Source: an uncultured Lachnospiraceae bacterium
Lineage (GTDB): Bacteria > Bacillota > Clostridia > Lachnospirales > Lachnospiraceae
Direction: 5' to 3'
Length of the DNA: 30,829 nt
Assembly: GCA_902803355.1 (NCBI GenBank)
Contig: CADCPP010000141.1
Location: 1 to 30,829, forward strand
The notes below the pieces were generated by a model. It did no database searches. It was not told where the DNA came from and was given only the letters and a program-made list of their open reading frames with translations. A program made the position numbers and the translations under genes. Positions 996 through 17,199 of the stretch are shown here, one piece after another. Position 1 is the stretch's first letter. The number at the start of each line of letters is the position of its first letter.

Positions 996-2039
996 TTACC
1001 GGGGAAGTCTGATCTTGTTTCTTCCCCGGAAGGTGTTGTATCTGTCCGGGATCCATTCCGGGCTGATATCCTTTACCGCTTCCGCGGCAGTGATCACCGC
1101 ATCATCATGATCGATATCGATCAGCTGATAGCGGTTATTTCCCATGCCGATCTCTTTCATATAGCTGAGCTGGCGCAGGCCGTGACGCGTCTCGATGCGT
1201 TCGATCATGGCCTTTCCGCCGCCTTCGGGCAGGTTATAGATCAGATCCACACAGGCCGTATCCGCCGCGCAGATATCCAGCGATGCCACGATCCCGATAT
1301 CCGGCGTGACCACAGGTTCCGCTTCGGGACCTTCGCAGTCACAGGAGACCGAAATATTCCGCAGGGTGTTCACGAAGCAGATATGCGGCGCGAAATGATC
1401 GACCACGGACTTGGTGCTCTCGGAAATGCGCTCCATCAGCTCTTCTTCCCCGATGCTCCACATATTGTCGGAGCCCTCGCGCTGGTGGATTTCCTTCTTT
1501 CCCACGCGGCCGTCCGCGCAGCCGATGCCGATGTTCTTGTTGCTGCCGCCGAAGCCGCCCATGGTGTGTCCTTTGAAATGCGTGAGCACCAGCAGGGAAT
1601 CATAATTCAGCAGATTCTTTCCCACATGCATTTCCGTAAACCACTTGCCGCCCTTTACCGGCAGCGCGGCTACACCGTTCTCATCCGTAATATCCACCGG
1701 GCAGAAGTTCCAGCCGTTGATCTCCAGCGTCTTTCGGTGTTCTTCGGTGGTATAGCGGGTCCCGTAATAGAAGGTGTTCGTTTCAACGATGGAAGCCTCC
1801 GGGAGCCTGTCCGCGATCAGCTGTCTGATCCAGGGCCGCGGCAGGATGTTGGGGCCTTCCGCTTCGCCGGTATGCAGCTTGATGGCCACCTTGCCGGTCA
1901 GGACAGAGGCGACGCGGTCATAGATCTTTTTCAGGCCTTCTTCAGACAGATCGCGGGTGAAAAACACCACGGATTCTGCCCCGTCTCTTTTTTCATAGGG
2001 GACATACACATTGCCGTTCTTTCCGGGTTCAGGTCTCAT
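996..2039 (-). CDS. DUF362 domain-containing protein (putative metal/Fe-S protein)
   Basis: Motifs IKLHTGEAEG, VETNTFY..R, THFKGH..GGFGGSNKNIGIG, NISVSCDCE, DICAADTA. No CxxCxxCxxxC ferredoxin insert. Start ATG 2039 with SD GGAGGAG at 2047-2053, overlapping the upstream stop by 11 nt. Confidence 0.75.
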   Translation of the reverse strand: MRPEPGKNGNVYVPYEKRDGAESVVFFTRDLSEEGLKKIYDRVASVLTGKVAIKLHTGEAEGPNILPRPWIRQLIADRLPEASIVETNTFYYGTRYTTEEHRKTLEINGWNFCPVDITDENGVAALPVKGGKWFTEMHVGKNLLNYDSLLVLTHFKGHTMGGFGGSNKNIGIGCADGRVGKKEIHQREGSDNMWSIGEEELMERISESTKSVVDHFAPHICFVNTLRNISVSCDCEGPEAEPVVTPDIGIVASLDICAADTACVDLIYNLPEGGGKAMIERIETRHGLRQLSYMKEIGMGNNRYQLIDIDHDDAVITAAEAVKDISPEWIPDRYNTFRGRNKIRLPR

Positions 2040-4449
2040 TCTTCGTCTCCTCCGCAGTTTCTTCCGGAAGCGTTTCGTCCACGCTTTCCTCCGTGCTCTC
2101 TTCGCTTGCTTCCGGCACTTCTTCCTCCTCGCCCAGCCAGTGGATATCTGCCGCATCCTTCAGGAAATAGCAGCTGTAATCCGCAAACAGGGCGGGATTG
2201 ATGGTCAGGTTGTAGGAATAGTCGTACATGGCCGCCTCAAGCTTCGTTGAGAAGACAAAGGCGCTGTAGCTGGGAGATCCGCTGTAGTTGCCGTAGACCG
2301 GCTGCTGATACAGTTCCTCCTGCAGGGTCTCGATGGAGCCCAGCGAACCGTTCAGGAAGAAGCCGCAGCGGGAAAGGCTGCTGTTGCTCTTCAGATACGG
2401 CCCCAGGAAATCCGTAAAGTCGCTCGGGGTAGTCCCGAACCAGTTGATCACGAGCGGCATGTAATAATAGTCGCCGACCTTTGTGACGATATACTTATCA
2501 TCCGGCGAACTGATATTCTTATCGTTGTCGCTGATGACCTCAGCCGGAATCCTCTTATAGCGCACGCCGCTGCTGTAGGCCGCGCCGCTGCGGTCATAGA
2601 CCCAGCCGCCTTCCTCAAGCAGACGGATCGCTTCCTGTTCGGAGGGCTTATAGGCATTCAGCTTCATGCCCTGCGCAACGGCTGATCTATACATCCAGGC
2701 GCCTTCATAGTAAGGACCGTCTACCGCCTTGCCGTGCTCTCCGGTAAAATCACTCGCGATATCGCTGCGGTCGAGCAGGTAGGCCAGAGCCCTGCGCACT
2801 TCGGTAAACTGGACCGGCCCGTAATCGCAGCGGAAGCCGATCTTTCCGTAACCGGCGCGAATGTACGTGAACGAGTCCAGTCTGGAGGAGAAGCGCTCAA
2901 CGTTCTTCAGCGCTTCCGCGATCGCCGAATCACCCGAGATGCCGCCCACAAAATCGAGGGAGCCGTTGCTCATCGCGACCATCTCGCCTTCCGCATCCAG
3001 GACCTTATAGGTCACCTTGCCGATGGAAGGCTTCGTTCCTTCATAATTGCCCTTGAAATGGATGTTGCGCGATAAGACGGCCTCACCGCTGTTTGTATCG
3101 AAAGAAAGGAGAAAATACGGCCCGGAATACGGATATTCCGCATAGGCTTTGCCGGACGTGTCCGTCGCCGCCATCTTGATCTGAGCTGCCGTCACATAAG
3201 CGCCGCTCTCATTCTTTGCGTAGAAATCATCCGTCAGATAGCAGCCTTCGCCGTCATCTTTGATCTCCGCATTACCAAGCCACATGGATGCGTAGTAGGG
3301 CTGCAGGGAGATCATGGCCAGATCATAGAACGACGGCAGATACTCCTTCTTCACTGTCTGCGAGAAGGTGTATTCGTCGATAAGATGAAAGCCCGTAAAG
3401 ACCTTGCTGCCGCCTTCCGCACCGGGACCGGTGTAGGCCAGATAATCCTCCCAGCCCAGATAAATGGCGCCGGAATCCTGACGGCCGGAAGCCGCTTCGC
3501 CCAGAGGGCTGAAAAAGACCATGGGGAAGGCCAGATAATCCTTCGCGGTGATGGCGCTGCCATCCGAGAATTTCAGATCATCCCAGAGCGTGATCGTGTA
3601 GGTCACGGAACCGTCTTCATTCTGGGTCTCCGTGTGCTGCTTCACCACCGTATCATTCCAGGTATAGCCCGCGTCCTTGGTGCGGGAGACGGTCTCCAGA
3701 CCGCTCAGCAGCTGTCCGATCTCCTTATCCGCCACATTGGTCGCAGCATTGCCGTAGGAAGCGTAGCGGAACTGACCGGCCGCTTTCGTGGTGTTGCCGA
3801 TGATGATCGATCCATTGGAGGAGGACCATTCCACGAGGGCATCCAGCACGGACCAGCTGGCCGTCACCGGGTGCTTGTCTATGCCGCTCAGTTTCTTGTT
3901 GTAGACGCAGAGGTACTCGTTCGTGTAGAGCGGGATCTCCGGCAGCAGATAGTTCCAGCGGGTAACGTACAGCCTCCACCAGGCGGCGTAAACGTCTTCC
4001 TTCGTCTTATAGTCTCCTGCGGGCTGGGTATTGCCGACCATGGCCATGGACAGGAAATCAAGACCGAGTTCATAGCGCTTTCCGTTCACTTCAATGTACG
4101 CAAAGCCGGTCTCCGGATCTTCGATCACATCGGCAATAGTGATGTCCCGGCCAAAGCTCTCATAAAGAGATTCATAATCCTTGCCGTAGGTATAATGACC
4201 AAGGACCATCGGCGCGAATTCGCTGTCTTTGTACACATCCATCGGATCCGGCTCCGCCTCGGTCGTTTCCTCGGGCGTGGTCTCTTCGGTCGTCTCCTCT
4301 TCCGTCGTCTCTTCTTTCGTGGTGACCGCTTCGGTGGTGGTTTCCGCCTCCGTTGTGGTCGCCTCGGTCGTTTCAGGCGTCTTGCCGGCACAGGCGGCCA
4401 GCTGGACGAGCAGCAGCATCGAGAGGAATATCGCAATGAATTTCTTCAT
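2029..4449 (-). CDS. Family-5 (oligopeptide/nickel-type) ABC substrate-binding lipoprotein, apparently circularly permuted
   Basis: Lipobox LAAC at residue 20, T/E-rich linker, family-5 motifs TYTITLWDDLKFSDGSAITAKDY, PYSGPY, EVRRALAYLLDR, LLEEGGW. SD AAAGGAG at 4455-4461. Confidence 0.85.
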   Translation of the reverse strand: MKKFIAIFLSMLLLVQLAACAGKTPETTEATTTEAETTTEAVTTKEETTEEETTEETTPEETTEAEPDPMDVYKDSEFAPMVLGHYTYGKDYESLYESFGRDITIADVIEDPETGFAYIEVNGKRYELGLDFLSMAMVGNTQPAGDYKTKEDVYAAWWRLYVTRWNYLLPEIPLYTNEYLCVYNKKLSGIDKHPVTASWSVLDALVEWSSSNGSIIIGNTTKAAGQFRYASYGNAATNVADKEIGQLLSGLETVSRTKDAGYTWNDTVVKQHTETQNEDGSVTYTITLWDDLKFSDGSAITAKDYLAFPMVFFSPLGEAASGRQDSGAIYLGWEDYLAYTGPGAEGGSKVFTGFHLIDEYTFSQTVKKEYLPSFYDLAMISLQPYYASMWLGNAEIKDDGEGCYLTDDFYAKNESGAYVTAAQIKMAATDTSGKAYAEYPYSGPYFLLSFDTNSGEAVLSRNIHFKGNYEGTKPSIGKVTYKVLDAEGEMVAMSNGSLDFVGGISGDSAIAEALKNVERFSSRLDSFTYIRAGYGKIGFRCDYGPVQFTEVRRALAYLLDRSDIASDFTGEHGKAVDGPYYEGAWMYRSAVAQGMKLNAYKPSEQEAIRLLEEGGWVYDRSGAAYSSGVRYKRIPAEVISDNDKNISSPDDKYIVTKVGDYYYMPLVINWFGTTPSDFTDFLGPYLKSNSSLSRCGFFLNGSLGSIETLQEELYQQPVYGNYSGSPSYSAFVFSTKLEAAMYDYSYNLTINPALFADYSCYFLKDAADIHWLGEEEEVPEASEESTEESVDETLPEETAEETKNET
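4249..4380 (-). repeat. Low-complexity Thr/Glu linker (ETTE-like repeats) after the lipoprotein Cys
   Basis: TPETTEATTTEAETTTEAVTTKEETTEEETTEETTPEETTEAEP. Confidence 0.8.
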
Positions 4450-4599: not shown

Positions 4600-6663
4600 T
4601 TATAATCCGAGTTCCTTCCTGTATCCATCGATCTCAGGAGAGTTGCCGTAGATGAAGTGGCCGGGCAGGATCTCGACCCATTTCGGCCCTTCCTTCTCGT
4701 AGTGATGGACAGAAGGATCGTATACCAAAAGCTTCTTGCTCCGCTCCACATAAGGGTTCGGATTGGGCACTGCCGACAGAAGCGCCTTGGTGTAAGGGTG
4801 CAGCGGATGCGCGAACAGCTCCTCCGCCTCAGCCAGCTCCACGATGCGGCCCTTGTGAATGACGGCGATGCGGTCCGAAATGAAGCGGACCACGCTTAAG
4901 TCGTGAGCAATGAACAAATAGGTCAGCCCGCGGCTCTTCTTCAGATCGTTCAGCAGGTTCAGCACCTGAGCACGGATGGACACGTCCAGTGCGGAGATCG
5001 GCTCGTCCGCCACGATGAACTCGGGTTCCATGATCAGGCTTCGGGCAATGCCGATACGCTGCCGCTGTCCGCCGGAGAACTCATGAGGGAAGCGGCTGGA
5101 GAACTCAGTCAGCAGGCCCACTTCCTGCAGTGCCTTCTGCACCTTCTCCTGGCGGTCCTGCTCATCCTTGTACAGATGATAGTTGAGCAGGCCTTCCGAT
5201 ACGATATAGTCCACCATGGCGCGTTCATTCAGAGATGCCATGGGATCCTGGAAGATCATCTGCATGGAACGGATCACCTTGGTATCCATCTCACGGCTGA
5301 TCTTTCCGCTGATCCGCTCGCCCTTGAAGAGGACTTCCCCGCTGGTGATCGGGTTGATGCGGACGATGGCACGGCCGATGGTCGTTTTGCCGCTGCCGCT
5401 CTCACCCACCAGAGCGAAGGTCTCGCCCTTATAGATCTCAAAGTTGACATCGTCTACAGCCACAAATTTGCGGCGGCCCGTACCGAACGTGACCTGCATA
5501 TTTTTGACTTCGATCAGCGTTTCCCGGTTGGGATCCAGATGAGGATGGTAGGCATTCGGATCCGTTCCTTTGCTGCTCAGATTCATCTCTGACAGGCGCT
5601 GGATGGATTTGGGTTGTTCTACCTTGGGCGCGCGGTGATCGCGGAGCCAGGACTTCACGGTATGCGTGCCCGTCACCTCGTACATGGGCGGTTCTTCCAG
5701 GAAATCGATGTTCAGGGCGTGCTTGTTGCGCGGTGCGAATGCGTCGCCCTGGATCTTGTTGAACAGACTGGGCGGGGTGCCGTCGATAGCCGGCAGCTTT
5801 TCGCCCTTCACGCCCAGCTGCGGCAGAGCGGACAGCAAAGCCCAGGTATACGGATGCTGGGGATCAAAGAACACTTCATTGGCCATGCCGATCTCAATGA
5901 TCTGGCCGCCGTACATGACCGCCACACGGTCTGCCACATTGGCTACCACGCCCAGGTCGTGCGTGATATAAATGATGGTCATGTTCTGTTCTTTCTGCAG
6001 GCGGCGGATCAGGTCCAGGATCTGCGCCTGAATGGTCACGTCCAGAGCGGTCGTCGGCTCATCGCAGATCAGGATCTGAGGACGGCACGCCACGGCAATG
6101 GCAATGACCACCCTCTGACGCATGCCGCCGGAGAACTCGTGCGGATACTGTTTGTAACGGCGCTGCGGATCCGGAATGCCGACCGCTTCCAGGATGCGGT
6201 AGACTTCTTCTCTGGCCGCCCTGCCTCTCAGACCCTGGTGCAGCTCCACGCTTTCCTGGATCTGGAAGCCGATGGTCTTTAAGGGGTTCAGGCTGGTCAT
6301 GGGGTCCTGCGTCACCATGGCGATCTTCTTGCCGCGGATACGCAGCCAGTCTTTTTCCGTAAACTGAGTCAGATCTTCTCCGTCATACATGATGGAGCCG
6401 TTGGTGATGCTGCCGTTCTTATCCAGCATGCCTACGAAACATTTGGTAAATACGCTCTTTCCGCTGCCGGATTCCCCCACGATGGCAAGGGTTTCTCCCT
6501 CATACAGGTCCAGGGAAGTGCGGCGGATGGCGACCAGCTTTTTCCCGCGAAGAGAGAAGGTCACTTCCACATCACGGGCAGACAGAAGCGGTTCCTGCGC
6601 CAGGATCTTTTTGGCGCGTTCGCTGAAATCGGTCTCATGCAGCTTATTCACAGCTTCACTCAT
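4600..6663 (-). CDS. Fused oligopeptide ABC ATPase (OppD-OppF in one polypeptide)
   Basis: Two complete NBDs: [29 protein letters not shown] and [29 protein letters not shown], each followed by an HPYT oligopeptide-ATPase tail. SD AAAGGAG. Confidence 0.93.
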
Positions 6664-6678: not shown

Positions 6679-7731
6679 TTACACATGGTTCCGCGGGTCG
6701 CACGCGTCAGAGAACGCGTTCCCCACCAGATAGAACGTAATGGTAATGATCGATACAATAGCTGCCGGGAACCACAGCGTATACGCGGCACGCGGGAACA
6801 CGGCACGGGCGGCGGCCAGCAGGATGCCCAGGGAAGGCACCATAATATCCATCAGGCCCAGATAGGTAAGCGTGGTCTCGTAGGCGATCGTATTGGGGAT
6901 CGCCAGCGCAAGACGCAGGATGATCACGCTGACCAGATACGGGAAGATATTCCTGAACAGGATCCGGCCCAGTTTCGTTCCCAGGCAGCGGGAAGCCAGG
7001 TTGTACTCCCGGTCGCGGTACATGAACACCAGGTTTCGGACGTTCCTGGCCGTGGCAAGCCAGCCGAAGCCTACCATGGCGATGCCCATGGTCACCATCG
7101 TCTTGCCTACCATCAGCGCGATCAGGGTCATGTAGATGATGGTCGGGACGTTATCGATCAGGTTGTAAAGCTCCGTAAAGAAACGGTCAAGCTTTCTCAC
7201 ATAGCCCCAGATCAGGCCGATGATCACGCCCAGCGTGATCTGGCCGAGGGAAACCAACACGGCAAGCAGGATGGATGCCCTGGTGGCGTACCACACCTGT
7301 GCCCAGTAGTCCTGACCGATGGCGTTGGTGCCGAACCAGAACTCGCTGTTCGGGCTGATATACATGCGGTTTAACGGGTCAGGCGCCATATGGATATCAT
7401 ATTTGCCGATGGCGCTCGCAATGAAGGTAAAGATGAACAGCAGGATGAAGATGATGGACATGATCACTGCCGGTCTCTTTTTCAGGAAGTTTGCCCAGAC
7501 GCTCTTCCAGTAAGAATAGTTGGAATAGCCGATCTTTTCCGCTTCCTGCGCGTTGTACTGAGCAAATTCAAAGAGCTGGTCCTCCGGCATCTGGCTGCGG
7601 GACTTCGGGTATTCCCGCCCCTTCGGCCTTTCTTTGCCGGGGTCCGTATCTACCTTCTCGGGATTGACCGTCATGTTGACGACGGGCGCTTCCGCCTCCT
7701 GAACTGTTTTCTTGTGTTCGCGGTTATCCAT
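6679..7731 (-). CDS. oppC: Oligopeptide ABC permease OppC (AmiD-like)
   Basis: YSYWKSVWANFLKKRPA N-terminus, FGTNAIGQDYW, EAA-loop REYNLASRCLG...ILFRNIFP, DACDPR end. TAATG overlap with oppB. Confidence 0.9.
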   Translation of the reverse strand: MDNREHKKTVQEAEAPVVNMTVNPEKVDTDPGKERPKGREYPKSRSQMPEDQLFEFAQYNAQEAEKIGYSNYSYWKSVWANFLKKRPAVIMSIIFILLFIFTFIASAIGKYDIHMAPDPLNRMYISPNSEFWFGTNAIGQDYWAQVWYATRASILLAVLVSLGQITLGVIIGLIWGYVRKLDRFFTELYNLIDNVPTIIYMTLIALMVGKTMVTMGIAMVGFGWLATARNVRNLVFMYRDREYNLASRCLGTKLGRILFRNIFPYLVSVIILRLALAIPNTIAYETTLTYLGLMDIMVPSLGILLAAARAVFPRAAYTLWFPAAIVSIITITFYLVGNAFSDACDPRNHV

Positions 7732-8927
7732 TAGCGCACATCCCCCTTTCCGGTCAGTTTGATTCTGGGATCGATCATCGTCATCAGCAGGTCGCCCAGA
7801 AAGACGCCGAAGATACCCATGGTCGCGTACAGCAGCACGATGCCCTGCACCAGATTCAGGTCATAGCGGCTGATGGCGGTGGTCAGTTCCGGGCCCATGC
7901 CGGGCACGGCGAAGAAGGTCTCCACAAGCAGCGACCCGCCCACCGTCAGCAGGATGGAATAAGGCAGGTACTGCGCCAGCGGCACGAAGGCGTTCTTCAG
8001 CACGTGGCGGAACATCACCTTTCTGTCGCTTAAGCCCTTAAGCTTAGCCAGCCGGATGTAATCCTTGTTCAGCTCATCCACCATGTAGCGTCTTGTCCAG
8101 AGCATGTAGCCGGCCGTGGACGCAACGGATAAGCAGATGATCGGCAGCACCATGGTGAGCCAGGGCTTCTCGGCCGTGGCGTCATAGCGCATGGGCAGGC
8201 CGAGCAGCGATGCCCCGGCGATCATGATAATGGTATAGATGACCAGGTGGGGCACGGCATTTACGATCACGGTATACGCCGTACCGAGATTATCAAACAA
8301 TTTATCTTTGTATCTGGCCTGAAGCACGCCGAAAACAACGCCCAGCACCAGAGAGATTCCCAAAGAAATCAGGCCGATCCTCATGGAGACGACCATCTTG
8401 GAGGCGATCACATCGGTAACATACTGATTCTTCTCCAGACGAATACTCTTGCCCAGATTGAACATCACCTTCTTGTAGTAGCCTTCCTTCAGTGTTCCGA
8501 AGGGATCTTCACCGGTTTTCGACTTTTCCGACAGATACTTGAGCAGCGACATGGGCTCGATGGATTTTACCTCCTTGCCCTTCGCGTTAAACACCCGCAT
8601 CTGCAGCATATCACCGAAGAAATCCCCCAGCTGAGCGATCACGGAACGGTTCACATACCCTGTGCCCTTCGGTGCGATCTCATTCTCTCTGCAGGTATGG
8701 CAGGCCTCACCGTTTACCAGACCGGTGCCCTTACAGTCGGAGCAGGACTCCATCAGCCCCAGTCTCTCCAGCTTGGCATACTTCTGCGTCTCGGTGAACT
8801 TCATCAGTTCATCTTCGGTAAAGAAATAGTCACTAGGCATGAGCCGCAGCAGACAAAACACCACACAGACGACCAGCAGGATCACCATGATCGATTGAAA
8901 CAGCCGCTTTATGATATATTTTACCAT
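7731..8927 (-). CDS. oppB: Oligopeptide ABC permease OppB (AmiC-like) with a Cys4 insert
   Basis: MVKYIIKRL N-terminal TM, NLGKS, EAA-loop ELNKDYIRLAKLKGL...RHVLKNA, ETFFAVPGMG, DPRIK. SD GGAGG at 8935-8939. Confidence 0.92.
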   Translation of the reverse strand: MVKYIIKRLFQSIMVILLVVCVVFCLLRLMPSDYFFTEDELMKFTETQKYAKLERLGLMESCSDCKGTGLVNGEACHTCRENEIAPKGTGYVNRSVIAQLGDFFGDMLQMRVFNAKGKEVKSIEPMSLLKYLSEKSKTGEDPFGTLKEGYYKKVMFNLGKSIRLEKNQYVTDVIASKMVVSMRIGLISLGISLVLGVVFGVLQARYKDKLFDNLGTAYTVIVNAVPHLVIYTIIMIAGASLLGLPMRYDATAEKPWLTMVLPIICLSVASTAGYMLWTRRYMVDELNKDYIRLAKLKGLSDRKVMFRHVLKNAFVPLAQYLPYSILLTVGGSLLVETFFAVPGMGPELTTAISRYDLNLVQGIVLLYATMGIFGVFLGDLLMTMIDPRIKLTGKGDVR

Positions 8928-8965
8928 GCGCCTTCCTCCATCCTCTCAAAAGCCTCTTAAAAGGA

Positions 8966-9062
8966 GCTTCCGGGGCAGTCCATTGGGCGGTCCCGGAAGC
9001 ATTGCTTGGTTCTGATCCGATCTGACAGCAAAGCGGATCAGACTTTTCCGGCAGCTGCCGGA
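8966..9062 (-). promoter_or_regulatory. Three consecutive stem-loops between oppA and oppB (likely mRNA stabilisation/processing)
   Basis: GCTTCCGGG(8966-8974)/CCCGGAAGC(8992-9000); TCTGATCCG(9011-9019)/CGGATCAGA(9034-9042); perfect 16-bp palindrome TCCGGCAGCTGCCGGA (9047-9062). No long U-tract. Confidence 0.6.
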
Positions 9063-9070
9063 GTCATGAA

Positions 9071-11122
9071 TTATTCCGCGTTGTACTTGGCGGCGAGTTC
9101 GTTCATCTGCGCGGTGGTGTAAGGAGTCTCACTGGTCTCCCAATCCACATAACGGTACGCCTGCATGCCATACATGCTGTACACCTTGGAGTAGTTGTTG
9201 ACCTTGGTCAGCTCCCAGCCCACTTCGTAGGAGCAAGGGATCACCAGCGCGTGATTCAGCATGCACGCTTCGGCTTTCGCGAATGCGGCATAGCGCTCAT
9301 CCATGTTGCCAGTGATGGCTTTCGCCTTGACGACCAGATCGGTGAATTCCTTGTAGGCGGCGATCAGATCAGGATCATCGTTGTCGTTGCAGTTGCTGTA
9401 CGCATTGGAGTAGTACGCAGCAGTGTCATCATAGGTTTCCTGGCCGAGGAAGTTGATCGGGTCAGCAAAGTCGGCGCCCCAGCCGTTGATGAAGAAGGAA
9501 GCCTTGCGGGGCTTACGCACTTCATTGGCAAGGGAGGAAACGTAGGTATTGGTCTTCAGGACAACATAATCGCTGCCGAGGCATTCTGCGAAGATGTTTT
9601 CCAGGACCTTGGCCGTCTGAGCAGCAACATCAGAAGAACCGGAGATGTAATAATCTACCTGGACAGGGAAGGTGACGCCCTTGGCGCTCAGTTCTTCCAT
9701 GGCTTTCTTCTTAAATTCGGCAGCCTTTGCAGCATCCACGCGGGTATACTTGGTGCTGTCATATTCCATGCCAAGTTCCTTCAGCACGAGCTTCGTGTAA
9801 TCGGTGCCGTCAGAGGTAAAGGCCACGCCGTTGCCGGTGTAGACGAAATTCTGGCAGGACAGAGGATTGATCGCGTTGGTGCGGGCGAAGTAGTTGGTCA
9901 GGTCAAGGCCGTAGTACAGGCTCTTGCGGAAGTTTTCGTTGGCAACAGCGGTGTTCCAGTTGGTGTCGGGCGTTTCGCCGTCTTCCAGGTTCTTGCTGTA
10001 TACCAGGTGGATCTGATAGGAGTACTTGGTCGGACGAGATTCAACCAGATAATCCTTCAGGTTGGCATCGCTGGTGCCGTTGTAGATGCCCTGCAGGGTA
10101 GCCTGGTCAAGGGATACGTGATCCAGTTCGCCGTTCTTGAACAGCTGGAAAGCCACAGACGCGGAGTCGACCATCTTGATGGTGACGGTATCGAAACGGC
10201 TGCAGTTGGCATCGTTCCAATAGTTCGGGCTCTTGGTCAGAACTTTCTGGTTCTGGGATACGAAATAGGTGACGGTGTAAGCGCCGTTGTACCACATATT
10301 TTCCCAGGTCACATCACGGTAGCCGTCAACGCCCAGTTCTTCGATCAGCTCGGCAGACAGAGGATACAGGCAGTTGTAGGTGGCCACAGAGGGGAAGTAA
10401 GGCAGCTGGTCGACCAGCGTGTAGGTGATGGTGCCGGCTTCGTCATCGACTTCGATACCGACCATTTCGGCAAACTTGCTGCCGTCTTCCGCGGTCAGAG
10501 CCTTTGCAGCCTCTTCGCCTTCGGTTTCGGTAAGGTTCTTGGTGTATTCGTAGTAGTCATTGGCACCGACGATCATTTCGGCGGGCATGGAGACGTTGTA
10601 CGAATCGTTCTTGGCATAGTTCAGGACCCATTCAAGGCCGGTCGCCCAGTCGGAAGCGACCACGTCAGCCTGAACTTCGCCGTCTTTGTTGAACCAGGTC
10701 ATGCCTTCGTTCAGCGTGAAGACCCAGGTCTTGCCGCCGTCAGGGGAGGTGTAATCCTTGGCAGCATTCAGTTTCAGATTGCCGTGGTTGTCGTTGGTCA
10801 GCAGGCCATCGAACAGGTTGCACAGCACGTTCAGATCGGCTGCCGCCTGGGAATAGTGGACATTCCAGGTTTCCAGTTCACGGGCCTTGGTCTCGTACGT
10901 GTTCAGGGTTCTCGTGGTACCGGGAGTGGGAGCCTCTGTGCTTTCTGCGGGTGCATTCGTGCTCTGATCGGGAGCCTTGGTGCTCTGATCAGGGGCCTTG
11001 GTGCTTTCCGGAGCGTTCGTGCTCTGCCCCGGAGCTGCGGAGCTCTGTCCGGGCTGTCCGCCACAGGCTGCCAGAGAGAGGACCATTGCCGCAGCAAGAA
11101 GCATTGCGAGCAGTTTCTTCAT
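9071..11122 (-). CDS. oppA: Oligopeptide-binding lipoprotein OppA (AmiA/AliA-like), 683 aa
   Basis: MKKLLAMLLAAAMVLSLAAC lipoprotein signal, NLFDGLL, GKTWVFTL, YNGAY, NENFRKSL, GWGADFADP, DERYAAF. SD AAGGAGG at 11129-11135 fixes the start at 11122, not 11281. Confidence 0.93.
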   Translation of the reverse strand: MKKLLAMLLAAAMVLSLAACGGQPGQSSAAPGQSTNAPESTKAPDQSTKAPDQSTNAPAESTEAPTPGTTRTLNTYETKARELETWNVHYSQAAADLNVLCNLFDGLLTNDNHGNLKLNAAKDYTSPDGGKTWVFTLNEGMTWFNKDGEVQADVVASDWATGLEWVLNYAKNDSYNVSMPAEMIVGANDYYEYTKNLTETEGEEAAKALTAEDGSKFAEMVGIEVDDEAGTITYTLVDQLPYFPSVATYNCLYPLSAELIEELGVDGYRDVTWENMWYNGAYTVTYFVSQNQKVLTKSPNYWNDANCSRFDTVTIKMVDSASVAFQLFKNGELDHVSLDQATLQGIYNGTSDANLKDYLVESRPTKYSYQIHLVYSKNLEDGETPDTNWNTAVANENFRKSLYYGLDLTNYFARTNAINPLSCQNFVYTGNGVAFTSDGTDYTKLVLKELGMEYDSTKYTRVDAAKAAEFKKKAMEELSAKGVTFPVQVDYYISGSSDVAAQTAKVLENIFAECLGSDYVVLKTNTYVSSLANEVRKPRKASFFINGWGADFADPINFLGQETYDDTAAYYSNAYSNCNDNDDPDLIAAYKEFTDLVVKAKAITGNMDERYAAFAKAEACMLNHALVIPCSYEVGWELTKVNNYSKVYSMYGMQAYRYVDWETSETPYTTAQMNELAAKYNAE
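10927..11053 (-). repeat. Degenerate 21-bp (7-aa) tandem repeat linker in OppA
   Basis: PGQSSAA PGQSTNA PESTKA PDQSTKA PDQSTNA PAESTEA. DNA units 10959-10979 and 10980-11000 are 19/21 identical. Confidence 0.85.
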
Positions 11123-11198
11123 AGTTTTCCTCCTTATTGGTAATGGTAATATGTCCGTTCTGGAAGAACAGCTGTCCTCCCGGGATATATTATACTTT

Positions 11199-11227
11199 AA
11201 TATAGCAAAGCGCCAAAGCCTTGTCAA
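11199..11227 (-). promoter_or_regulatory. Sigma-A promoter of the oppABC-D/F operon
   Basis: Minus strand TTGACA (11227-11222), 17 nt spacer, TGc-TATATT (11204-11199). An A/T tract lies upstream, and a second TATAAT is at 11194-11189. Confidence 0.8.
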
Positions 11228-11300
11228 GGAATGTCTTTCAAAAAAAACATCATTTTTTAGCGCCCTTTGCGTGATCGTCATTCGGACCGGCGGCTTCCTC

Positions 11301-11861: not shown

Positions 11862-12260
11862 TTAAGCGGCAAAGTGATACAGCAGCAGAAAGACGCCGGA
11901 AAGGATAAAAAAGCCAAGTCCGGTAAAGAGAGACTGCTTCAGCCAGGGTCCCCTTGCCTTTGCCTTTTCATCTTTATAGTCGACGAACTGTCCTGCAGGC
12001 TTTCCGGTCCGGAACAGCTTCCAGACCGTTTTGATGCCGTAGCCGAAGATATCGTAGAAACCTTCGGAAGCCATGTAGCTAAGCCCCCCGAGGCCGCCAA
12101 GCAGCACACCGGTCAGAAAGCAGCTGTCCGACAGCATGCCGAAAACGTCCTTCGCCGAAGCCGCTCCGAATATCCCGTGGGAGAGCGCCGCCGTAAAACA
12201 AAGCAGGACTCCTGCGGCTATCCAGATCAGCAGTTTCTTTTTTGAACCGGCTTCCTTCAC
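11862..12260 (-). CDS. DUF3899-like small membrane protein (last gene of the opp operon)
   Basis: Three TM segments, DSCFLTG...GFYDIFGYG motif, GTG start overlapping the oppF stop (GTGA). This position at the end of opp operons is typical for the family as I recall it. Confidence 0.7.
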   Translation of the reverse strand: MKEAGSKKKLLIWIAAGVLLCFTAALSHGIFGAASAKDVFGMLSDSCFLTGVLLGGLGGLSYMASEGFYDIFGYGIKTVWKLFRTGKPAGQFVDYKDEKAKARGPWLKQSLFTGLGFFILSGVFLLLYHFAA

Positions 12261-13492
12261 TTGAGCACGCTCATGTACTTCTGGTATTCCGCCTCATTGC
12301 ACATGACGAAATGGCCCGGCTTGATCTCCCGGAAGGACGGCTTGTCCACGGAATAATCATGCTCCGCAAGCGGATTGTAGGTGATGCGCTTGCGCTGCTT
12401 TTCGGAGATCGGGTCCGGCAGCGGGATGGCTGACAGAAGCGAACGGGTGTAGGGATGCAGCGGGTTCAGGAAAAGCTCATCCGAGGGCGCCATCTCGACC
12501 ATCTTGCCGAAATACATGACGCCGATCCGGTCGGAGAAGTACTTGACCACGGAAAGGTCGTGCGCGATAAACAGCAGGGTCAGGCCGAACTTATCGCGAA
12601 GGTCGTTGAGCAGATTGATGACCTGCGCCTGAATGGAAACGTCCAGCGCGGAGACCGGTTCGTCGGCAATGACGAGGTCGGGCCGCATGACGATGGCTCT
12701 GGCCACGCCGATACGCTGCCTCTGGCCGCCGGAGAATTCGTGCGGGTAGCGGCTCGCGTGCTCGGGGACAAGGCCGACCAGGTCGAGCATCTCATAGACC
12801 TTCTCGTTGATGACCTTCGGGTCTCTCTCTCCGCGGATGACCAGCCCCTCCGCGATGGTGTCGCGGACCGTCATACGGGGATCAAGGGAGGCGATCGGGT
12901 CCTGGAAGATCATCTGGATCTGCGTGATGACCTTGGAGTTCTTCGCCTTGCGCAGCTCATTTCTGTACTCAGCCGACAGTTTTTTCTTTTCCTCGGCGGA
13001 AGCGCCGGCCAGCAGCGGTTCATATTTTTCCTTCACCGCAGCCGTCAGCTTTTCGACATATTCCTTGTCGCAGTTCTTCTGATCGTACTGTGCTTCTTTG
13101 ATCAGCTTCTTCTGCTCGGCAACGGTCCGGTCAAGCTCTTCCTTCAGGCGTTTCTTTTCATCCTCGGAGGCCGTCTTTACCTTTTCGTTATAGGCTGCCT
13201 TCGCGTCCTTGATGGCCTGTTTGTAGCTTCCGGTCCCGGCGCATACGCGCACGCCCTTGAAATAGACACTGCCGGAGGTGATGTCATAGAGCTTGATGAT
13301 GGAGCGGCCGGTCGTGGTCTTGCCGCAGCCGGACTCACCGACCATGCCGAAGACCTCGCCTTTATGGATCTCAAAGCTGACGTCATCCACGGCCTTGGTC
13401 GGCCCGAAGTACTGGCAGAGGTGATCCACCTTCAGCAGAACGTTGTCCTTCAGTTCAACGTCCACATTCTGCGATACGTTCTGATTATCCAT
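12257..13492 (-). CDS. oppF: Oligopeptide ABC ATPase OppF with a ~100-aa charged helical insert
   Basis: [51 protein letters not shown] at 13501-13506. Confidence 0.92.
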
Positions 13493-15653
13493 TTTGTCCG
13501 GCCTCCCGTTTCTTCTGCATGCGGCGGATGCGTTCGGTCACAGCCTTCGGCGGTTCCACCTTCGGTGCATCGGGGTGAAGCAGCCAGGTCGCGGCATAGT
13601 GCGTGTCGCTGATCTTGAACATCGGCGGCTGCTTTTCGAAATCGATCTTCAGGGAATACTTATTGCGCGGGGCAAAAGCATCGCCCTTCGGCGGATAGAT
13701 CATGTTGGGCGGCGTTCCGGGGATCGCCTCCAGACGTTCGTTGGTATCCAGGTCGGGCATGGAGCCAAGCAGAGCCCAGGTATACGGATGTCTGGAGTTG
13801 TAGAAAATATCCTCCGAGGTGCCGTATTCCACGATCTTGCCGGCATACATGACCGCGATGCGGTCCGCCATATTGGCCACGACGCCGAGGTCGTGGGTGA
13901 TGAAGATGACCGACAGGTGGCGTTCCTCCTTCAGCTTGTTGATCAGCTCAAGGATCTGCGCCTGGATCGTCACGTCAAGCGCGGTGGTCGGCTCGTCGCA
14001 GATCAGGATGTCCGGGTCCGCTGCCAGCGCGATGGCGATAACGATACGTTGCCGCATGCCGCCGGAAAACTCGAAAGGATACTGGTTGTAGCGGCGTCTG
14101 GGTTCCGCAATGCCCACCTCTTCCATCAGCTTGATGGCGCGCAGGCGCGCGGTCTTCTTCGTGACCTTGTTGACGATGCCGGAGGCGTTCGTCTTCAGAT
14201 ATTCCACCGCGGTCTCCGTGCGGGCATCCGCATCCGCGCCCGCATCGTTCTGCAGCGCTTCCTCGAAATGGTCGGAAAGGCGGGTGATCAGATGGGCCAT
14301 GTTCTGCTTGGTCAGTTCCAGATCGGTGACCGAGGCAGCCGGGACCTTCCAGCCCGGATCCTTGCCCTTTGCCATCTGCGCATCGTATTTCTTCTGCAGC
14401 TTGTCATGCTTTTTGAGTTCTTTGACGTTCTGCACGATGCCTTTGAAATAGGTATCGATCTCGCTCTTCAGACCGGAGGAGAAGGTATAGGCCAACGAAT
14501 CCTTTACGGTAAGCAGCGGGTCGATGGTCTTATTCACGGCTTCGGTGAGCTTGTCCAGGCTGGCTTTGCAGGCGTGTTTGTCCAGCTGGCCTTCCGCCTG
14601 GTATAAGGGCAGTTCCTCTTTCAGGACCTTTATGGCTTCGCGCTTTGCCTCCGCGGACTTCTTTTCCGCAAAAGCGATGCCGGCTGAGGCATAGGAGGCA
14701 AATTCCTTCATGAAGCCTTCGCTGACCCTGTCATAGAGGCGCTTGTTCAGTTCCTCCACGGGAACATCGGGCAGGGGCTCCTTTTCATAGGTCAGCCAGT
14801 AGCCCATAGCGAAGAAATCGGGTTTTTCCTTCGCAGCAGCTTCTTCCAGGATGCCTTTTAATTCCGTCAGGCGTTCTACGGTCTTCGCAAAATTGCCTTC
14901 CTTCTTCAGGGCTTTTGCTTCCTGCAGAAGGCCGTCCGTAAGCTCGTTCAGGCGCTCCGCCTTGTCCCTGACCACATAGGTCTGGACAGAGGTTTTCGCT
15001 TCGGTCACGATCTGCTTCAGACGGTAGTCCATATCCTTGGCGGCATTCTTTTCCAGCTCAAGGGTGATGGAATCGATCCCGTCGACGGCATCTTCCGCCG
15101 CTTCATGCGCCGTATTGTAGGCTGTTTCCAGCTCAATATGCTTCTTTTCGAAGGTCTCGAAACGCTTGCAGAGATCATCGATCTTCGCGTCATCGCTCCG
15201 TCCGGCGGCCTTTGCCGCTTCCTTCATGCTGGTATTCAGTTCCTTCAGATAGCTGTTGAAATTCCGGCGGCTCTCCCGCTGTCTGGCCTTGCCCTTTAAG
15301 ATCATGGCCTCGGTCAGCTGGCGGCCGATCTTGACGATCGGGTTCAGGGAGCTCATGGGGTCCTGGAAGATCATGGCGATCTTGTCGCCGCGGATCTTGT
15401 GGAAATCTTCTTCGGAGATCTTCAGCAGATCCTTGCCGTCGTAAATGATCTCGCCGCCTTCAATGATGGAGTTGCCGGCGAGGATGCCGAGGATCGCCTT
15501 GCTCGTGACGGATTTGCCGGAACCCGACTCGCCCACGATGGCCAGTGTTTCGCCCTTTTCCAGGTCGAAGCTGATGCCCCGGACCGCCTGTACCTTGCCG
15601 TTTGTGGTGTGGAAGGATATTCTCAGATCGCTGACATGCAGTTTGTTTTCCAT
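13485..15653 (-). CDS. oppD: Oligopeptide ABC ATPase OppD with a ~375-aa helical insert
   Basis: [49 protein letters not shown] 15653 fits SD spacing and coupling to the oppC stop better than ATG 15662. Confidence 0.9.
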
Positions 15654-15654
15654 A

Positions 15655-17199
15655 TTAATCATCCACTCCTCTCAGCGAAGGATTGAAGGCATCGCGCAGG
15701 CCGTTGCCGAAGAGGTTGAATGCGATCAGCAGCAGCGCGAAATACATGGCCGGGAAGAACATGGCGTGCGGTGAGCTCGTCATGGAGGTCTGGCCCTGGC
15801 TCATCAGGGTGCCCAGGCTCGTTCCCGCAAAGTCCGCGATATTGACGATGCCGAGGTAGGTCAGGGTGGTCTCGGAACGGATGACGCCCGGGATGGTCAG
15901 CGCGCAGCTCGTGATGATAGTGCCGATAGCGTTCGGGAAGATGTGCTTGAACATCAGCCGCCAGTCGGAAGCACCGAGCGTGCGGGCTGCCATGACGAAT
16001 TCCTGGCTCTTGAAACGGTAGAACTGTTTCCGGACCAGAGCCGCCATGCCGATCCAGCCTGTCAGCACGAAGGCAAAGAGGAAAGAAGGCACAACGCCCA
16101 CCTTCGGCGCCAGGTGCAGCTGGAACAGGGTCGAAACGACGATGAAAGGCACTTCATACAGAATATCCGCGATACGGTCCATGATCATGTCGACCGCGCC
16201 GCCGTAATAGCCCTGGATGGCGCCGTAGACGGCACCGATCGTCAGGTTGATCACGGAGACGAGCAGCGCGAAGATGATGGAGAAGCGGGAGCCTATGCCG
16301 ATGGCGCAGAACAGATCCATGCCCATGGAGTTGGTCCCCATGATGTACATGGGTTCATGACCGTTCACATAGGTATAGTAGTTGTAGTAGCATACACGGC
16401 ACTGCACGGCGCCGGACTTCTGCATGCTGTAGATCCAGTTGCCGGGGTCGTTTTCCAGCCGTTTGCTGTGATAAGGGGCGCCTTCCTTGGCCGTATTGGT
16501 GGAATAGGCCGGGATGAAGTTTCCTTCCTTATCATATTTCGGCGTGCCCTTGTTGTCCGAGACCTGATACCAGACGTTCGCGCTCGTGATGTCCTTGATG
16601 TCCTTGGCTTCCACGAAGGGATAGATGACCTGGATACCGGTCTCGTCCTGCCATTTCTGGATATCCTCGAATTCCTGGAACGATAAGACACGGAAGATCA
16701 TGCCCTGTTCATAGTACTTGTTGGTCTGGATCTTGTAGGTCTTTGTGATCCTTTCCTTGCCGCGGTAGAGCGATACGGTCTCCGTGGTCTCCAGGATCTT
16801 TAACAGCGGATCGTAGCCGGTCTCAATGGCAACGGCCTTCCACTGCGCCATGGCCGCCTCATTCTGCGAGGCATGCACGGCAGCGCCGTCAAAAATGCCT
16901 ATCTTCTTTTCCGCGATGGAACGGATATAAGGCGGATAGTTGACGTAATACTTGTCCTGGTCCCTTACCGTATACTTTGACAGGATGGGGGACAGAAGGG
17001 AAAACAGCAGCAGGAAGAAAATGATCCAGGCACCGATCACGGACGCCCTGTTCTTTCTGAAGCGCACAAGAGCATCGGCAAAGTAGCCGCGCGCCTTGGT
17101 CTCCAGCTTCGTATCGTGAAGGGTCTCGTCCTGCTGCGCAAGTTCAAACATTTCCTTCGGAATATCTTCGTAAATATTTTTCGTTGCTTCGTTCATCAT
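15655..17199 (-). CDS. oppC: Oligopeptide ABC permease OppC with a large extracytoplasmic insert
   Basis: YFADALVRFRKNRAS, MGTNSMGMDLF, EAA-loop QEFVMAARTLGAS...KHIFPN, GNGLRDAFNP. ATGA overlap with oppB. Confidence 0.9.
   Translation of the reverse strand: MMNEATKNIYEDIPKEMFELAQQDETLHDTKLETKARGYFADALVRFRKNRASVIGAWIIFFLLLFSLLSPILSKYTVRDQDKYYVNYPPYIRSIAEKKIGIFDGAAVHASQNEAAMAQWKAVAIETGYDPLLKILETTETVSLYRGKERITKTYKIQTNKYYEQGMIFRVLSFQEFEDIQKWQDETGIQVIYPFVEAKDIKDITSANVWYQVSDNKGTPKYDKEGNFIPAYSTNTAKEGAPYHSKRLENDPGNWIYSMQKSGAVQCRVCYYNYYTYVNGHEPMYIMGTNSMGMDLFCAIGIGSRFSIIFALLVSVINLTIGAVYGAIQGYYGGAVDMIMDRIADILYEVPFIVVSTLFQLHLAPKVGVVPSFLFAFVLTGWIGMAALVRKQFYRFKSQEFVMAARTLGASDWRLMFKHIFPNAIGTIITSCALTIPGVIRSETTLTYLGIVNIADFAGTSLGTLMSQGQTSMTSSPHAMFFPAMYFALLLIAFNLFGNGLRDAFNPSLRGVDD

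What the first reader, a model, noticed from the sequence alone, without database searches (positions are those of the whole stretch)
8658..8744. DnaJ-type zinc-finger pair inserted in the external loop of OppB
Seen: CSDCKGTG-LVNGEA-CHTC-RENEIAP-KGTG is inserted just after the conserved 'LGL' of the post-TM1 loop; the OppB at 17196-18149 reads LGYNKPYLEQF there with no insert. Established: CxxCxGxG is the DnaJ zinc-finger repeat, two repeats bind one Zn, and the DnaJ finger contributes to binding unfolded polypeptides. The loop after TM1 of OppB is normally extracytoplasmic. Inference: a metal- or redox-responsive module, or a peptide-capturing accessory domain, on a peptide permease. I know of no described example.
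Basis: partly seen in the sequence, partly recalled or inferred. Interest (0 to 1): 0.72.

Follow-up and report, generated by a model that had tools for sequence, protein, structure and literature searches.

The report
Zinc-finger insert in a peptide-transporter permease
A membrane subunit of a peptide-type ABC importer from a rumen bacterium carries, on its outer face, a small four-cysteine zinc-finger module of the kind found in the chaperone DnaJ; the cysteines never vary among relatives, and no published example of this arrangement was found.

Summary
The ORF at 7731-8927 (-) is a 398-aa OppB-type permease. Residues C62-G90 (8658-8744) read CxxCxGxG-x6-CxxC-x8-GxG.

The motif is a clade-specific insert in the extracytoplasmic loop after TM1. 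It sits where the alpha2 helix of the 'scoop motif' meets alpha3.

- All four Cys and four Gly are invariant in 37 of 37 species-level relatives, while the residues between them vary freely.
- All 120 closest cluster representatives keep the four Cys.
- Of 79 assessable genome loci, 41 of 41 long-loop forms have the Cys pairs and 0 of 38 short-loop forms do.
- Sister proteins carry 8 CxxC at the same site. Three of four pass Pfam's DnaJ_CXXCXGXG cut-off; the window's single finger does not (17.4 vs 32.7 bits).
- The nearest solved look-alikes are DnaJ, anti-TRAP and BSD2, all weak matches.

The carriers are rumen and gut Clostridia, plus a nested Anaerolineaceae group that suggests gene transfer.

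My best reading, which is inferred, is a one-metal Zn(Cys)4 staple in an enlarged docking cap for the binding protein. Redox-switch and peptide-capture roles remain open.

I rate this a new variant of a known kind, of moderate interest.

The parts
7731..8927 (-). OppB-type ABC permease gene, 398 aa, carrying both loop inserts
   Evidence: ORF. PF00528 scores 130.3 bits at residues 196-390. The AlphaFold2 model has mean pLDDT 84.6. Its best Foldseek match is E. coli OppB 8z21_A, E 1.9e-11, TM-score 0.85 on the target.
8841..8903 (-). TM1 (about residues 9-29), preceded by K3, K7 and R8 on the cytoplasmic side
   Evidence: Helix 2-28 in the model. Residues 1-39 align with TM1 of E. coli OppB.
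8763..8834 (-). Short helices after TM1 (residues 32-55). They correspond to the alpha1-loop-alpha2 'scoop motif' of DppB/OppB.
   Evidence: Model helices 32-35, 38-43 and 46-55. The scoop motif lying between TM1 and alpha3 is described in PMC12136057 (passages). The equivalence is by position in the loop, which is inference.
8649..8747 (-). Insert 1 (residues 61-93): the four-Cys DnaJ/anti-TRAP-type finger, C62-x2-C65-x-G67-x-G69-x6-C76-x2-C79-x8-G88-x-G90.
   Evidence: Insert boundaries against finger-less relatives come from alignment A7. Invariance is 37 of 37. All 120 of 120 cluster representatives have four Cys. pLDDT is 85-89 here in the full model.
8466..8600 (-). Insert 2 (residues 110-154): a strand-helix-strand element between the alpha3-like helix and the conserved FNLGKS strand
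   Evidence: Alignment A7. Model strands 108-113 and 151-156 and helix 128-138, with pLDDT about 90. No clear fold match in PDB; best VIA-align Z is 2.8.
9071..11122 (-). Substrate-binding protein (SBP_bac_5). The likely start is MKKLLAM..., with a lipobox LAAC and a low-complexity linker. Listed as a 736-aa ORF, 9071-11281.
   Evidence: PF00496 scores 81.8 bits. The N-terminus was read.
6679..7731 (-). OppC-type permease, 350 aa
   Evidence: PF00528 and OppC_N. NCBIfam MMSYN1_0166 scores 378.5 bits against a cut-off of 370.
4600..6663 (-). Fused OppD-OppF ATPase, 687 aa (two ABC_tran and two oligo_HPY stretches)

Best explanation
The feature is a real, selectively maintained insertion of a single DnaJ/anti-TRAP-type zinc knuckle. 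Two CxxCxGxG-type half-sites together offer four Cys to one metal, most likely Zn. The insert lies in the extracytoplasmic TM1-TM2 loop of an OppB-family ABC permease, at the junction between alpha2 of the scoop motif and the alpha3 helix.

Together with a second insert of about 45 aa, it builds a small extra domain on the outer face of the permease. I propose that the metal site is a structural staple that holds this cap rigid. I further propose that the cap modifies how the roughly 640-aa substrate-binding protein docks on, or stays on, the translocator. This would be comparable to accessory periplasmic loops of other ABC importers.

Shown:
- the insert, its boundaries and its clade restriction;
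- the invariance of the Cys and Gly residues;
- the DnaJ-type signature;
- confident prediction of a folded loop domain;
- presence of the coding sequence in contigs of rumen RNA libraries.

Inferred:
- extracytoplasmic location, by homology to solved OppB/DppB;
- metal binding and the metal's identity;
- contact with the binding protein.
For: **Identity and selection.** C62, C65, G67, G69, C76, C79, G88 and G90 are invariant in 37 of 37 species-level sequences, while the intervening positions have 1.5-3.0 bits of entropy. The full motif is present in 119 of 120 cluster representatives, and four Cys in 120 of 120.

**Clade restriction.** I examined 80 genome loci. Of these, 41 of 41 long-loop forms (38 of 391-408 aa, including two cut matches, and 3 of 568-581 aa) have two CxxC. 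None of 38 short-loop forms (316-355 aa) does. One locus (L069) does not cover the loop.

**DnaJ-type character.**
- The C2-C3 spacing is x10 in 105 and x11 in 14 of the 119 representatives. It is also x10 in the anti-TRAP sequence printed.
- The loop profile hits 1exk, 2ctt, 2bx9 and 3lcz.
- NCBIfam RtpA matches with E 3.9e-4.
- Six of the 36 relatives in A4 have a perfect second CxxCxGxG.
- Relatives with 8 CxxC at the same site score 44.2, 36.4 and 37.5 bits on PF00684 (cut-off 32.7) over the whole profile; a fourth scores 26.4.
- Anti-TRAP binds one Zn through two CXXCXGXG motifs, and the Zn is needed for assembly and function (PMC2896485 passages).

**Structure.** pLDDT is 85-93 across residues 60-160 in the full model. 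Strands 59-61 and 91-93, which flank the finger, are listed next to strands 108-113 and 151-156 of insert 2.

**Position.** In E. coli DppB the scoop motif between TM1 and alpha3 occupies the cleft of DppA, with alpha2 on the N-lobe (PMC12136057 passages). Here the finger begins right after the alpha2-like helix.

**Order of events.** On a tree of the TM core, insert 2 appears first (52 rows, SH-aLRT 97). The finger-bearing rows all lie in one 45-row group (SH-aLRT 99).

**Habitat.** Most record titles name ruminant gut compartments, an anoxic setting in which external thiolates could stay reduced. That last point is inference.
Against: - No metal, no contact and no phenotype was measured.
- The window's own finger is below Pfam's cut-off (17.4 vs 32.7 bits). 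The fold matches are weak: Foldseek E 0.1 at best, VIA-align Z 2.1-2.5.
- Binding-protein size does not track the finger. Upstream reading frames, stop to stop, are about 630-760 aa in all loop classes.
- An alignment of 65 binding proteins shows only one 3-residue indel and 8 discriminating columns between finger and non-finger operons. Five of these columns lie in residues 211-292, and the signal is confounded by phylogeny.
- Five relatives (class A, L044-L048) sit in the same 45-row group yet lack the finger. The transporter therefore evidently works without it.
- A Zn(Cys)4 site outside the cytoplasm is chemically vulnerable, so a disulfide or redox role cannot be excluded.
- I could not read model coordinates, so the Cys geometry was not checked.
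Confidence: 0.5

Rival explanations
1. Redox or oxygen switch. The two CxxC pairs lose the metal and form disulfides when the strictly anaerobic cell meets oxidants. This changes the loop conformation and gates or shuts down import.
For: - There are two CxxC motifs on the outer face.
- Carriers are gut and rumen anaerobes by record titles.
- DnaJ-type fingers are reported to have thiol-oxidoreductase activity; I saw this only in the abstract of PMC8262869 in the listing.
- Thylakoid-lumen DnaJ-like fingers are linked to disulfide chemistry; I saw only the titles and abstracts listed.
Against: - The invariant Gly pattern (xGxG after each CxxC) is typical of the metal knuckle rather than of thioredoxin-like redox CxxC sites.
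- No thioredoxin fold is predicted.
- Nothing here tests redox behaviour.
Confidence: 0.2
2. Peptide or unfolded-polypeptide capture. As proposed by the first reader, the finger acts like the DnaJ cysteine-rich domain and holds substrates near the binding protein or the translocation gate.
For: - The finger has DnaJ-type character.
- Relatives expand the site to a full four-repeat DnaJ central domain plus further repeats.
- From recall, not from a call: the DnaJ Zn centres contribute to substrate handling.
Against: - In this transporter class substrate capture is done by the binding protein, and one is encoded immediately upstream.
- The surface residues of the finger are hypervariable. That fits poorly with a conserved ligand-binding surface, although it would suit promiscuous binding.
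- Known single-pair fingers (anti-TRAP, BSD2) bind folded protein partners (PDB titles).
Confidence: 0.1
3. Fold staple only. The finger merely stabilises the enlarged loop domain, or anchors it to the cell wall or to OppC, without touching the binding protein and without any regulatory role.
For: - The finger's flanking strands are listed beside those of insert 2 in the confident model.
- The finger arose after insert 2 on the tree.
- No binding-protein feature clearly co-varies with it.
- Finger-less class A relatives exist within the same group.
Against: - The site is at the base of the scoop motif, which contacts the binding protein in solved homologues.
- The repeated expansion of the same site to 8 CxxC, or by insertions of about 80 aa inside the finger, suggests selection on an exposed, interacting surface.
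Confidence: 0.2

Closest known systems
OppB/DppB permeases of peptide ABC importers (solved: E. coli OppB 8z21, M. tuberculosis OppB 8j5q, E. coli DppB 8z1v, M. tuberculosis DppB 8wd9)
   Same: - The six-helix core is shared: PF00528, and Foldseek E 1.9e-11 with TM-score 0.85 to 8z21_A.
- The operon has the same make-up: an SBP_bac_5 protein, OppC, and ATPases with oligo_HPY domains.
- TM1 is followed by a helical scoop-like segment.
   Different: About 80 extra residues lie in the TM1-TM2 loop, as two inserts, one of which is a four-Cys finger. None of the four solved homologues aligns over residues 40-139.
Anti-TRAP (RtpA) of Bacillus, a 53-aa protein with two CXXCXGXG motifs binding one Zn
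   Same: - It has one pair of CxxC(xGxG) half-sites with the same x10 spacing.
- It gives the best Foldseek rows for the loop model (3ld0, E 0.1, probability 0.98).
- NCBIfam RtpA matches with E 3.9e-4.
- It is a protein-protein interaction module that depends on Zn (PMC2896485 passages).
   Different: - Anti-TRAP is a free cytoplasmic trimer-forming regulator, whereas the window's finger is embedded in an extracytoplasmic permease loop.
- The score is far below the family cut-off (20.5 vs 65 bits).
- The second half-site in the window is split by 8 residues.
DnaJ central cysteine-rich domain (Pfam PF00684; structure 1exk) and plant DnaJ-like finger proteins such as BSD2 (6ekb)
   Same: - It shares the CxxCxGxG repeat.
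- The loop profile finds 1exk (E 0.0022) and 2ctt (E 0.022).
- Sister OppB proteins pass the Pfam cut-off over the full 65-position profile.
   Different: - The window has two repeats, which make one site, whereas DnaJ has four repeats and two sites.
- There is no J domain.
- The location is outside the cytoplasm.
- The window scores 17.4 bits against a cut-off of 32.7.
Accessory periplasmic loops of other ABC importer permeases (MalF P2 loop of the maltose transporter; recalled, not tested here)
   Same: In both cases a large extra domain inserted in an outward-facing permease loop lies next to the element that enters the binding protein. It is a working analogy for a docking cap.
   Different: The loop is a different one (TM3-TM4 in MalF), the fold is different, and MalF P2 has no metal site. 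The comparison rests on recall only.
NCBIfam MMSYN1_0165/0166/0169 (Opp of the minimal Mycoplasma mycoides cell)
   Same: - These are the best-scoring curated families for OppB (215.5 bits), OppC (378.5 bits, above the 370 cut-off) and OppA (134.2 bits).
- The OppB model is also long (388 positions).
   Different: - OppB and OppA score far below their cut-offs (350 and 650).
- I did not examine whether the Mycoplasma loop holds Cys.

Membership tests
OppB/DppB-type ABC importer permease (Pfam PF00528, BPD_transp_1) | Pfam domain hit above the gathering score | tested here: met
   130.3 bits against a cut-off of 26.4, residues 196-390.
OppB/DppB-type ABC importer permease (Pfam PF00528, BPD_transp_1) | Fold of solved OppB/DppB | tested here: met
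   Foldseek to 8z21_A gives E 1.9e-11 and TM-score 0.85 on the target; 8j5q_B gives E 3.7e-11.
OppB/DppB-type ABC importer permease (Pfam PF00528, BPD_transp_1) | Operon with a family-5 binding protein, a second permease (OppC) and Opp-type ATPases | tested here: met
   SBP_bac_5, OppC_N plus BPD_transp_1, and ABC_tran plus oligo_HPY are encoded in adjacent minus-strand genes.
OppB/DppB-type ABC importer permease (Pfam PF00528, BPD_transp_1) | Transport of peptides | not testable with these tools
   The substrate is inferred from family names only.
DnaJ central cysteine-rich domain (Pfam PF00684) | CxxCxGxG repeats | tested here: met
   The window has one perfect repeat (C62-G69) and one split repeat (C76-x2-C79 ... 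G88-x-G90). Six relatives have a perfect second repeat.
DnaJ central cysteine-rich domain (Pfam PF00684) | Score above Pfam's gathering cut-off | tested here: not met
   The window scores 17.4 bits against 32.7, and 18.9 bits in the genome scan. Sister proteins P0123, P0134 and P0135 score 44.2, 36.4 and 37.5 bits; P0133 scores 26.4.
DnaJ central cysteine-rich domain (Pfam PF00684) | Four repeats forming two Zn centres | tested here: not met
   The window and 119 of 120 close representatives have two half-sites, which make one centre. Variants with 8 CxxC exist.
DnaJ central cysteine-rich domain (Pfam PF00684) | Zn binding by the four Cys | not testable with these tools
   No coordinates or metal analysis were available.
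DnaJ central cysteine-rich domain (Pfam PF00684) | Fold like 1exk, BSD2 or anti-TRAP | tested here: inconclusive
   Foldseek: 3ld0 E 0.1, 2bx9 E 0.42, 6ekb E 1.9. VIA-align: 2bx9 Z 2.5, 7zhs Z 2.4, 1exk Z 2.1, 6ekb Z 2.1. The domain is too small for strong scores.
Anti-TRAP RtpA (NCBIfam NF058604) | Score above the curated cut-off; a free protein of about 53 aa | tested here: not met
   20.5 bits against 65. Here the motif is embedded in a 398-aa permease.
MMSYN1_0165 OppB equivalog (NCBIfam NF043081) | Score above the curated cut-off | tested here: not met
   215.5 bits against 350.

The most novel reading that the evidence does not exclude
A chaperone-type DnaJ zinc-finger module has been recruited to the outside of the cell. 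It would act as a working part of a nutrient importer rather than a passive staple. It could be a redox- or metal-sensitive gate that couples peptide uptake to the anoxic state of the rumen. Alternatively it could be a holdase-like arm that handles peptides or the binding protein at the mouth of the translocator. The site would be an evolvable platform: the family shows 1 to 4 predicted metal centres, and inserts of 80 aa or more inside the finger. The whole operon would be passed between rumen Clostridia and Anaerolineaceae.
Probability: 0.15. Interest if true: 0.8.

Novelty: new variant of a known kind. Interest (0 to 1): 0.52.

Why it matters
Peptide ABC importers are now well known structurally, and the scoop motif of OppB/DppB is a key element of substrate hand-over. 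An accessory metal-binding module grafted at its base is a natural experiment on how docking of the binding protein can be modified.

Cys4 zinc fingers are regarded as intracellular modules. A conserved one on the outer face of a membrane protein in strict anaerobes would extend where such sites can operate, and it might report on redox conditions at the cell surface.

The family offers a ready-made series for testing this: no insert, insert 2 only, one finger, and four predicted centres. It is also abundant in ruminant gut genomes, where peptide uptake matters for nitrogen economy.

Tried and rejected
- **** failed because I gave the wrong strand for the paralogue. I corrected this.
- **Complex prediction** of the loop domain (144 aa) with the binding protein (residues 70-683), each given as a 30-row alignment, returned no verdict: score 0.00 in two runs, controls not run. 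It says nothing either way.
- **Insert search against representatives.** A phmmer search of the insert against 1.84 billion representatives gave only 12 hits, all OppB relatives or fragments. No other protein family carries this loop.
- **ESM Atlas look-alikes** of residues 36-165 scored 0.82-0.86, below a useful level.
- **Fold of insert 2.** The best VIA-align Z is 2.8 and nothing stands out.
- **Co-variation with the binding protein.** Upstream reading frames, stop to stop, are similar in all loop classes. The signal type, lipobox or signal-peptidase-I-like, occurs in both finger and non-finger operons. Only one 3-aa indel and 8 columns discriminate the two groups. I rejected this as evidence because of phylogenetic confounding.
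- **Other PF00684 hits in the genome.** These are the true DnaJ (64.5 bits) and, in the 644-aa frame on C35, a weak 18.2-bit match in a protein that I read by eye as a UvrA-like ABC ATPase. Neither is related to the finding.
- **Earlier findings of this scan.** Nothing was on record.
- **Literature.** No paper linking OppB or ABC permeases with CxxCxGxG or zinc-ribbon inserts turned up. These cover open-access full text only.
- **Disulfide-only reading.** I considered that the four Cys might only form two disulfides. I judge this less likely because of the invariant Gly pattern and the anoxic habitat, but it is not excluded.
- **Binning artefact.** I considered this for the Chloroflexota carriers. 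It is unlikely, because 8 separate genome records are involved and several contigs are 80-105 kb long.
Full report
**What is there.** The minus-strand ORF 7731-8927 encodes a 398-aa protein. Its C-terminal 200 residues are a standard binding-protein-dependent permease domain: PF00528 at 130.3 bits, residues 196-390. It lies in an Opp-type operon, all on the minus strand:
- a family-5 binding protein at 9071-11281;
- this OppB;
- an OppC at 6679-7731;
- a fused double ATPase with oligo_HPY domains at 4600-6663.

The second OppB of the window (17196-18149, minus strand, 317 aa) has no such segment.

**Anatomy of the loop.** I aligned the N-terminal parts of the window protein and of relatives with shorter and longer loops. 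This shows two separate inserts.
- Insert 1 (residues 61-93, 8649-8747) is the Cys-rich segment. In finger-less relatives the chain runs straight from ...GLLD to PPLVQLG...
- Insert 2 (residues 110-154, 8466-8600) lies between the following helix (QLGDFF...) and the conserved FNLGKS strand.

Solved OppB/DppB proteins (8z21, 8j5q, 8z1v, 8wd9) match the core and TM1 but not residues 40-139. An AlphaFold2 model built on a 66-row alignment has mean pLDDT 84.6, with 85-93 across the inserts. It predicts short strands at 59-61 and 91-93 flanking the finger, strands at 108-113 and 151-156, and a helix at 128-138. The whole model matches E. coli OppB with E 1.9e-11 and TM-score 0.85 on the target.

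**Topology and position.** TM1 is preceded by K3, K7 and R8 and aligns with TM1 of E. coli OppB. In the E. coli DppABCDF paper (PMC12136057; abstract and passages read) the segment between TM1 and the short alpha3 helix is periplasmic. It forms the alpha1-loop-alpha2 'scoop motif'. That motif enters the cleft of DppA, with alpha2 lying on the N-lobe, and its deletion impairs growth on dipeptide and cuts ATPase activity to about a quarter. By position, the window's helices 38-43 and 46-55 correspond to that motif, and the finger starts immediately after the second helix. The extracytoplasmic location and the nearness to the binding protein are therefore inferences from homology, not measurements.

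**Is it conserved?** Very strongly.
- The 120 best 90%-identity cluster representatives (77-100% identical) all keep four Cys, and 119 keep the full CxxCxGxG...CxxC...GxG[YF] pattern.
- A scan of one genome per species found 400 relatives, of which the best 80 were returned. I translated all 80.

| Class | Length (aa) | Loci | Loop content | Two CxxC |
|---|---|---|---|---|
| C | 391-408 (includes L014, cut at the N-terminus, and L030, 370 aa) | 38 | finger plus insert 2 | 38 of 38 |
| D | 568-581 | 3 | finger plus a giant insert 2 | 3 of 3 |
| A | 337-338 | 5 | short insert 2, no Cys | 0 of 5 |
| B | 351-355 | 7 | insert 2, no Cys | 0 of 7 |
| 0 | 314-317 | 26 | no insert | 0 of 26 |
| not classed (L069) | 241 | 1 | match does not cover the loop | not assessable |

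So 41 of 41 finger-class loci have two CxxC, and 0 of 38 others do. In the 37-row loop alignment the four Cys and four Gly are invariant, while every other position from 60 to 87 has 1.5-3.0 bits of entropy. This is the signature of selection on a metal knuckle rather than on a surface.

**Is it DnaJ-type?**
- The window's own segment scores only 17.4 bits on Pfam PF00684, against a cut-off of 32.7.
- It gives a weak NCBIfam hit to anti-TRAP RtpA, E 3.9e-4.
- A profile of the loop alignment searched against all PDB sequences returns five hits. Four are DnaJ-type fingers: DnaJ 1exk (E 0.0022), DNAJA3 2ctt (0.022), and anti-TRAP 2bx9 (0.064) and 3lcz (0.074).
- A model of the loop alone (pLDDT 77.9) has anti-TRAP as its top Foldseek rows (3ld0, E 0.1, probability 0.98) and BSD2 further down. 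By VIA-align, anti-TRAP, DnaJA2, DnaJ and BSD2 appear at Z 2.1-2.5. This is weak, as expected for 30 residues.

The strongest argument comes from relatives. P0123, P0133, P0134 and P0135 are OppB proteins of the same subfamily that carry eight CxxC at the same site. Three of the four pass the Pfam cut-off over the full 65-position profile, with 44.2, 36.4 and 37.5 bits; the fourth scores 26.4. Six species-level relatives have a perfect second CxxCxGxG. In the window and most relatives, 6-9 residues have been inserted between the last CxxC and its GxG.

The C2-C3 spacing of 10 equals that of anti-TRAP in the alignment printed. Anti-TRAP binds one Zn through two CXXCXGXG motifs, and the Zn is needed for oligomer formation and function (PMC2896485, passages).

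I therefore read the window's segment as one DnaJ/anti-TRAP-type four-Cys site. By the family's own threshold it is not a member of PF00684, and it is not a DnaJ protein, because it has no J domain.

**Evolution and distribution.** I built a quick maximum-likelihood tree of the C-terminal 245 residues, with the inserts left out. It has 79 rows: 77 loci, the window protein and the window's paralogue as outgroup. L014, L030 and L069 were left out as partial.
- All 52 rows that carry insert 2 group together (SH-aLRT 97).
- All 40 finger-bearing rows fall inside a 45-row group (SH-aLRT 99). That group also holds the five finger-less class A rows in an unresolved position.
- So there was either one gain and one loss, or class A is sister to the finger clade.
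- Eight rows labelled Chloroflexota or Anaerolineaceae form a group with one Clostridia row (SH-aLRT 98), nested among Clostridia rows. This suggests transfer of the operon between rumen lineages.

Using the loop as query, I searched for the finger form among the window genome's relatives.

| Group searched | Genomes with a match |
|---|---|
| Other species of the window genome's own genus | 3 of 18 |
| Genomes of other genera of its family | 0 of 6 |
| Sampled genomes of its order (E <= 1e-10) | 0 of 300 |

The distribution is patchy. Most record titles name ruminant gut compartments.

**Presence in RNA libraries.** Contigs from four sheep or bovine gut metatranscriptome libraries match the operon at 95% identity or better. 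One piece covers 8122-9219 with 2 differences, and another covers 8487-8799 with none. No differences are listed inside the finger. Such libraries can contain DNA, so this shows presence and sequence constancy but does not prove transcription.

**Mechanism.** The most economical reading has three parts. The four Cys bind one Zn. The knuckle staples a small extra domain that it forms together with insert 2. This cap, at the base of the scoop motif, alters docking or retention of the binding protein.

For this reading:
- the position of the insert;
- the protein-binding role of the nearest single-pair fingers;
- the confident folded prediction;
- the repeated enlargement of this very site in relatives, to eight CxxC, or by about 80 residues inserted inside the finger in L050 and L051.

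Against it:
- nothing was measured;
- binding-protein size and signal type do not track the finger;
- only a 3-residue indel and eight columns of the binding protein discriminate finger from non-finger operons;
- class A shows that the system can do without a finger.

The one complex prediction gave no verdict and is not used. A redox switch, peptide capture and a pure fold staple remain open as rivals. A rubredoxin-like Fe site cannot be excluded from sequence.

**Novelty and score.** Three full-text searches found no description of a CxxCxGxG or zinc-ribbon insert in OppB or any ABC permease. The precomputed Pfam column shows that automatic annotation already places PF00684 beside PF00528 on the multi-finger relatives. 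The co-occurrence therefore exists silently in databases.

This is a new variant of a known kind: an ordinary Opp-type importer with an unusual, conserved, outward-facing Cys4 module. It is of moderate interest as it stands. It would be of high interest if the finger proves to be a redox gate or a working arm of the transport cycle.

Noticed in passing
window 15655-17199 (-): The OppC of the second Opp operon is 514 aa. About 230 residues lie between its OppC_N domain (39-90) and its permease domain (323-510). This is a large extracytoplasmic insert of unknown fold in the partner permease.
   Followed up: no
window 4600-6663 (-) and 13485-15662 (-); also 12257-13492 (-): Both Opp operons encode fused double ATPases (687 and 725 aa). 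A further single Opp-type ATPase gene (411 aa) follows the second operon.
   Followed up: no
window 2029-4449 (-) and 996-2156 (-): A third family-5 binding-protein gene (806-aa ORF) lies directly downstream of the finger operon's ATPase, next to a DUF362 gene.
   Followed up: no
window 9071-11281 (-), N-terminus: The binding protein has a lipobox (LAAC) followed by a low-complexity Pro/Ser/Thr/Ala-rich linker of about 50 aa. Most orthologues in other finger-bearing operons instead have a signal ending in ...ASA-D/E-E-L-T with no Cys. They are apparently not lipid-anchored, although the hosts are labelled as Clostridia.
   Followed up: partly
L016, L017, L019, L020, L021, L023, L025, L034: Eight genome records labelled Chloroflexota, Anaerolineaceae, Flexilinea or Leptolinea carry the finger-bearing OppB at 78-81% identity. 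They nest inside the Clostridia sequences on the core tree (SH-aLRT 98), which suggests inter-phylum transfer within the rumen.
   Followed up: partly
P0123, P0133-P0135; L049-L051; P0130: Long variants (530-688 aa) carry eight CxxC and/or a second insert of 200-300 aa, with repeated ...L.EGEE.PEG.TV.E... modules. In L050 and L051 about 80 residues are inserted between the two CxxC of the finger. P0130 (473 aa) holds the same repeats and a finger but no permease core in the part seen.
   Followed up: partly
window 7525-7545 and 10469-10488: In all four RNA-library runs, a contig piece joins 10488 to 7525 with the same 25 letters between (one or two letters differ in two of the five rows), and there are loose ends at 7545 and 10469. 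The two window stretches show no obvious repeat. These are probably short matches to another organism's transcript.
   Followed up: partly
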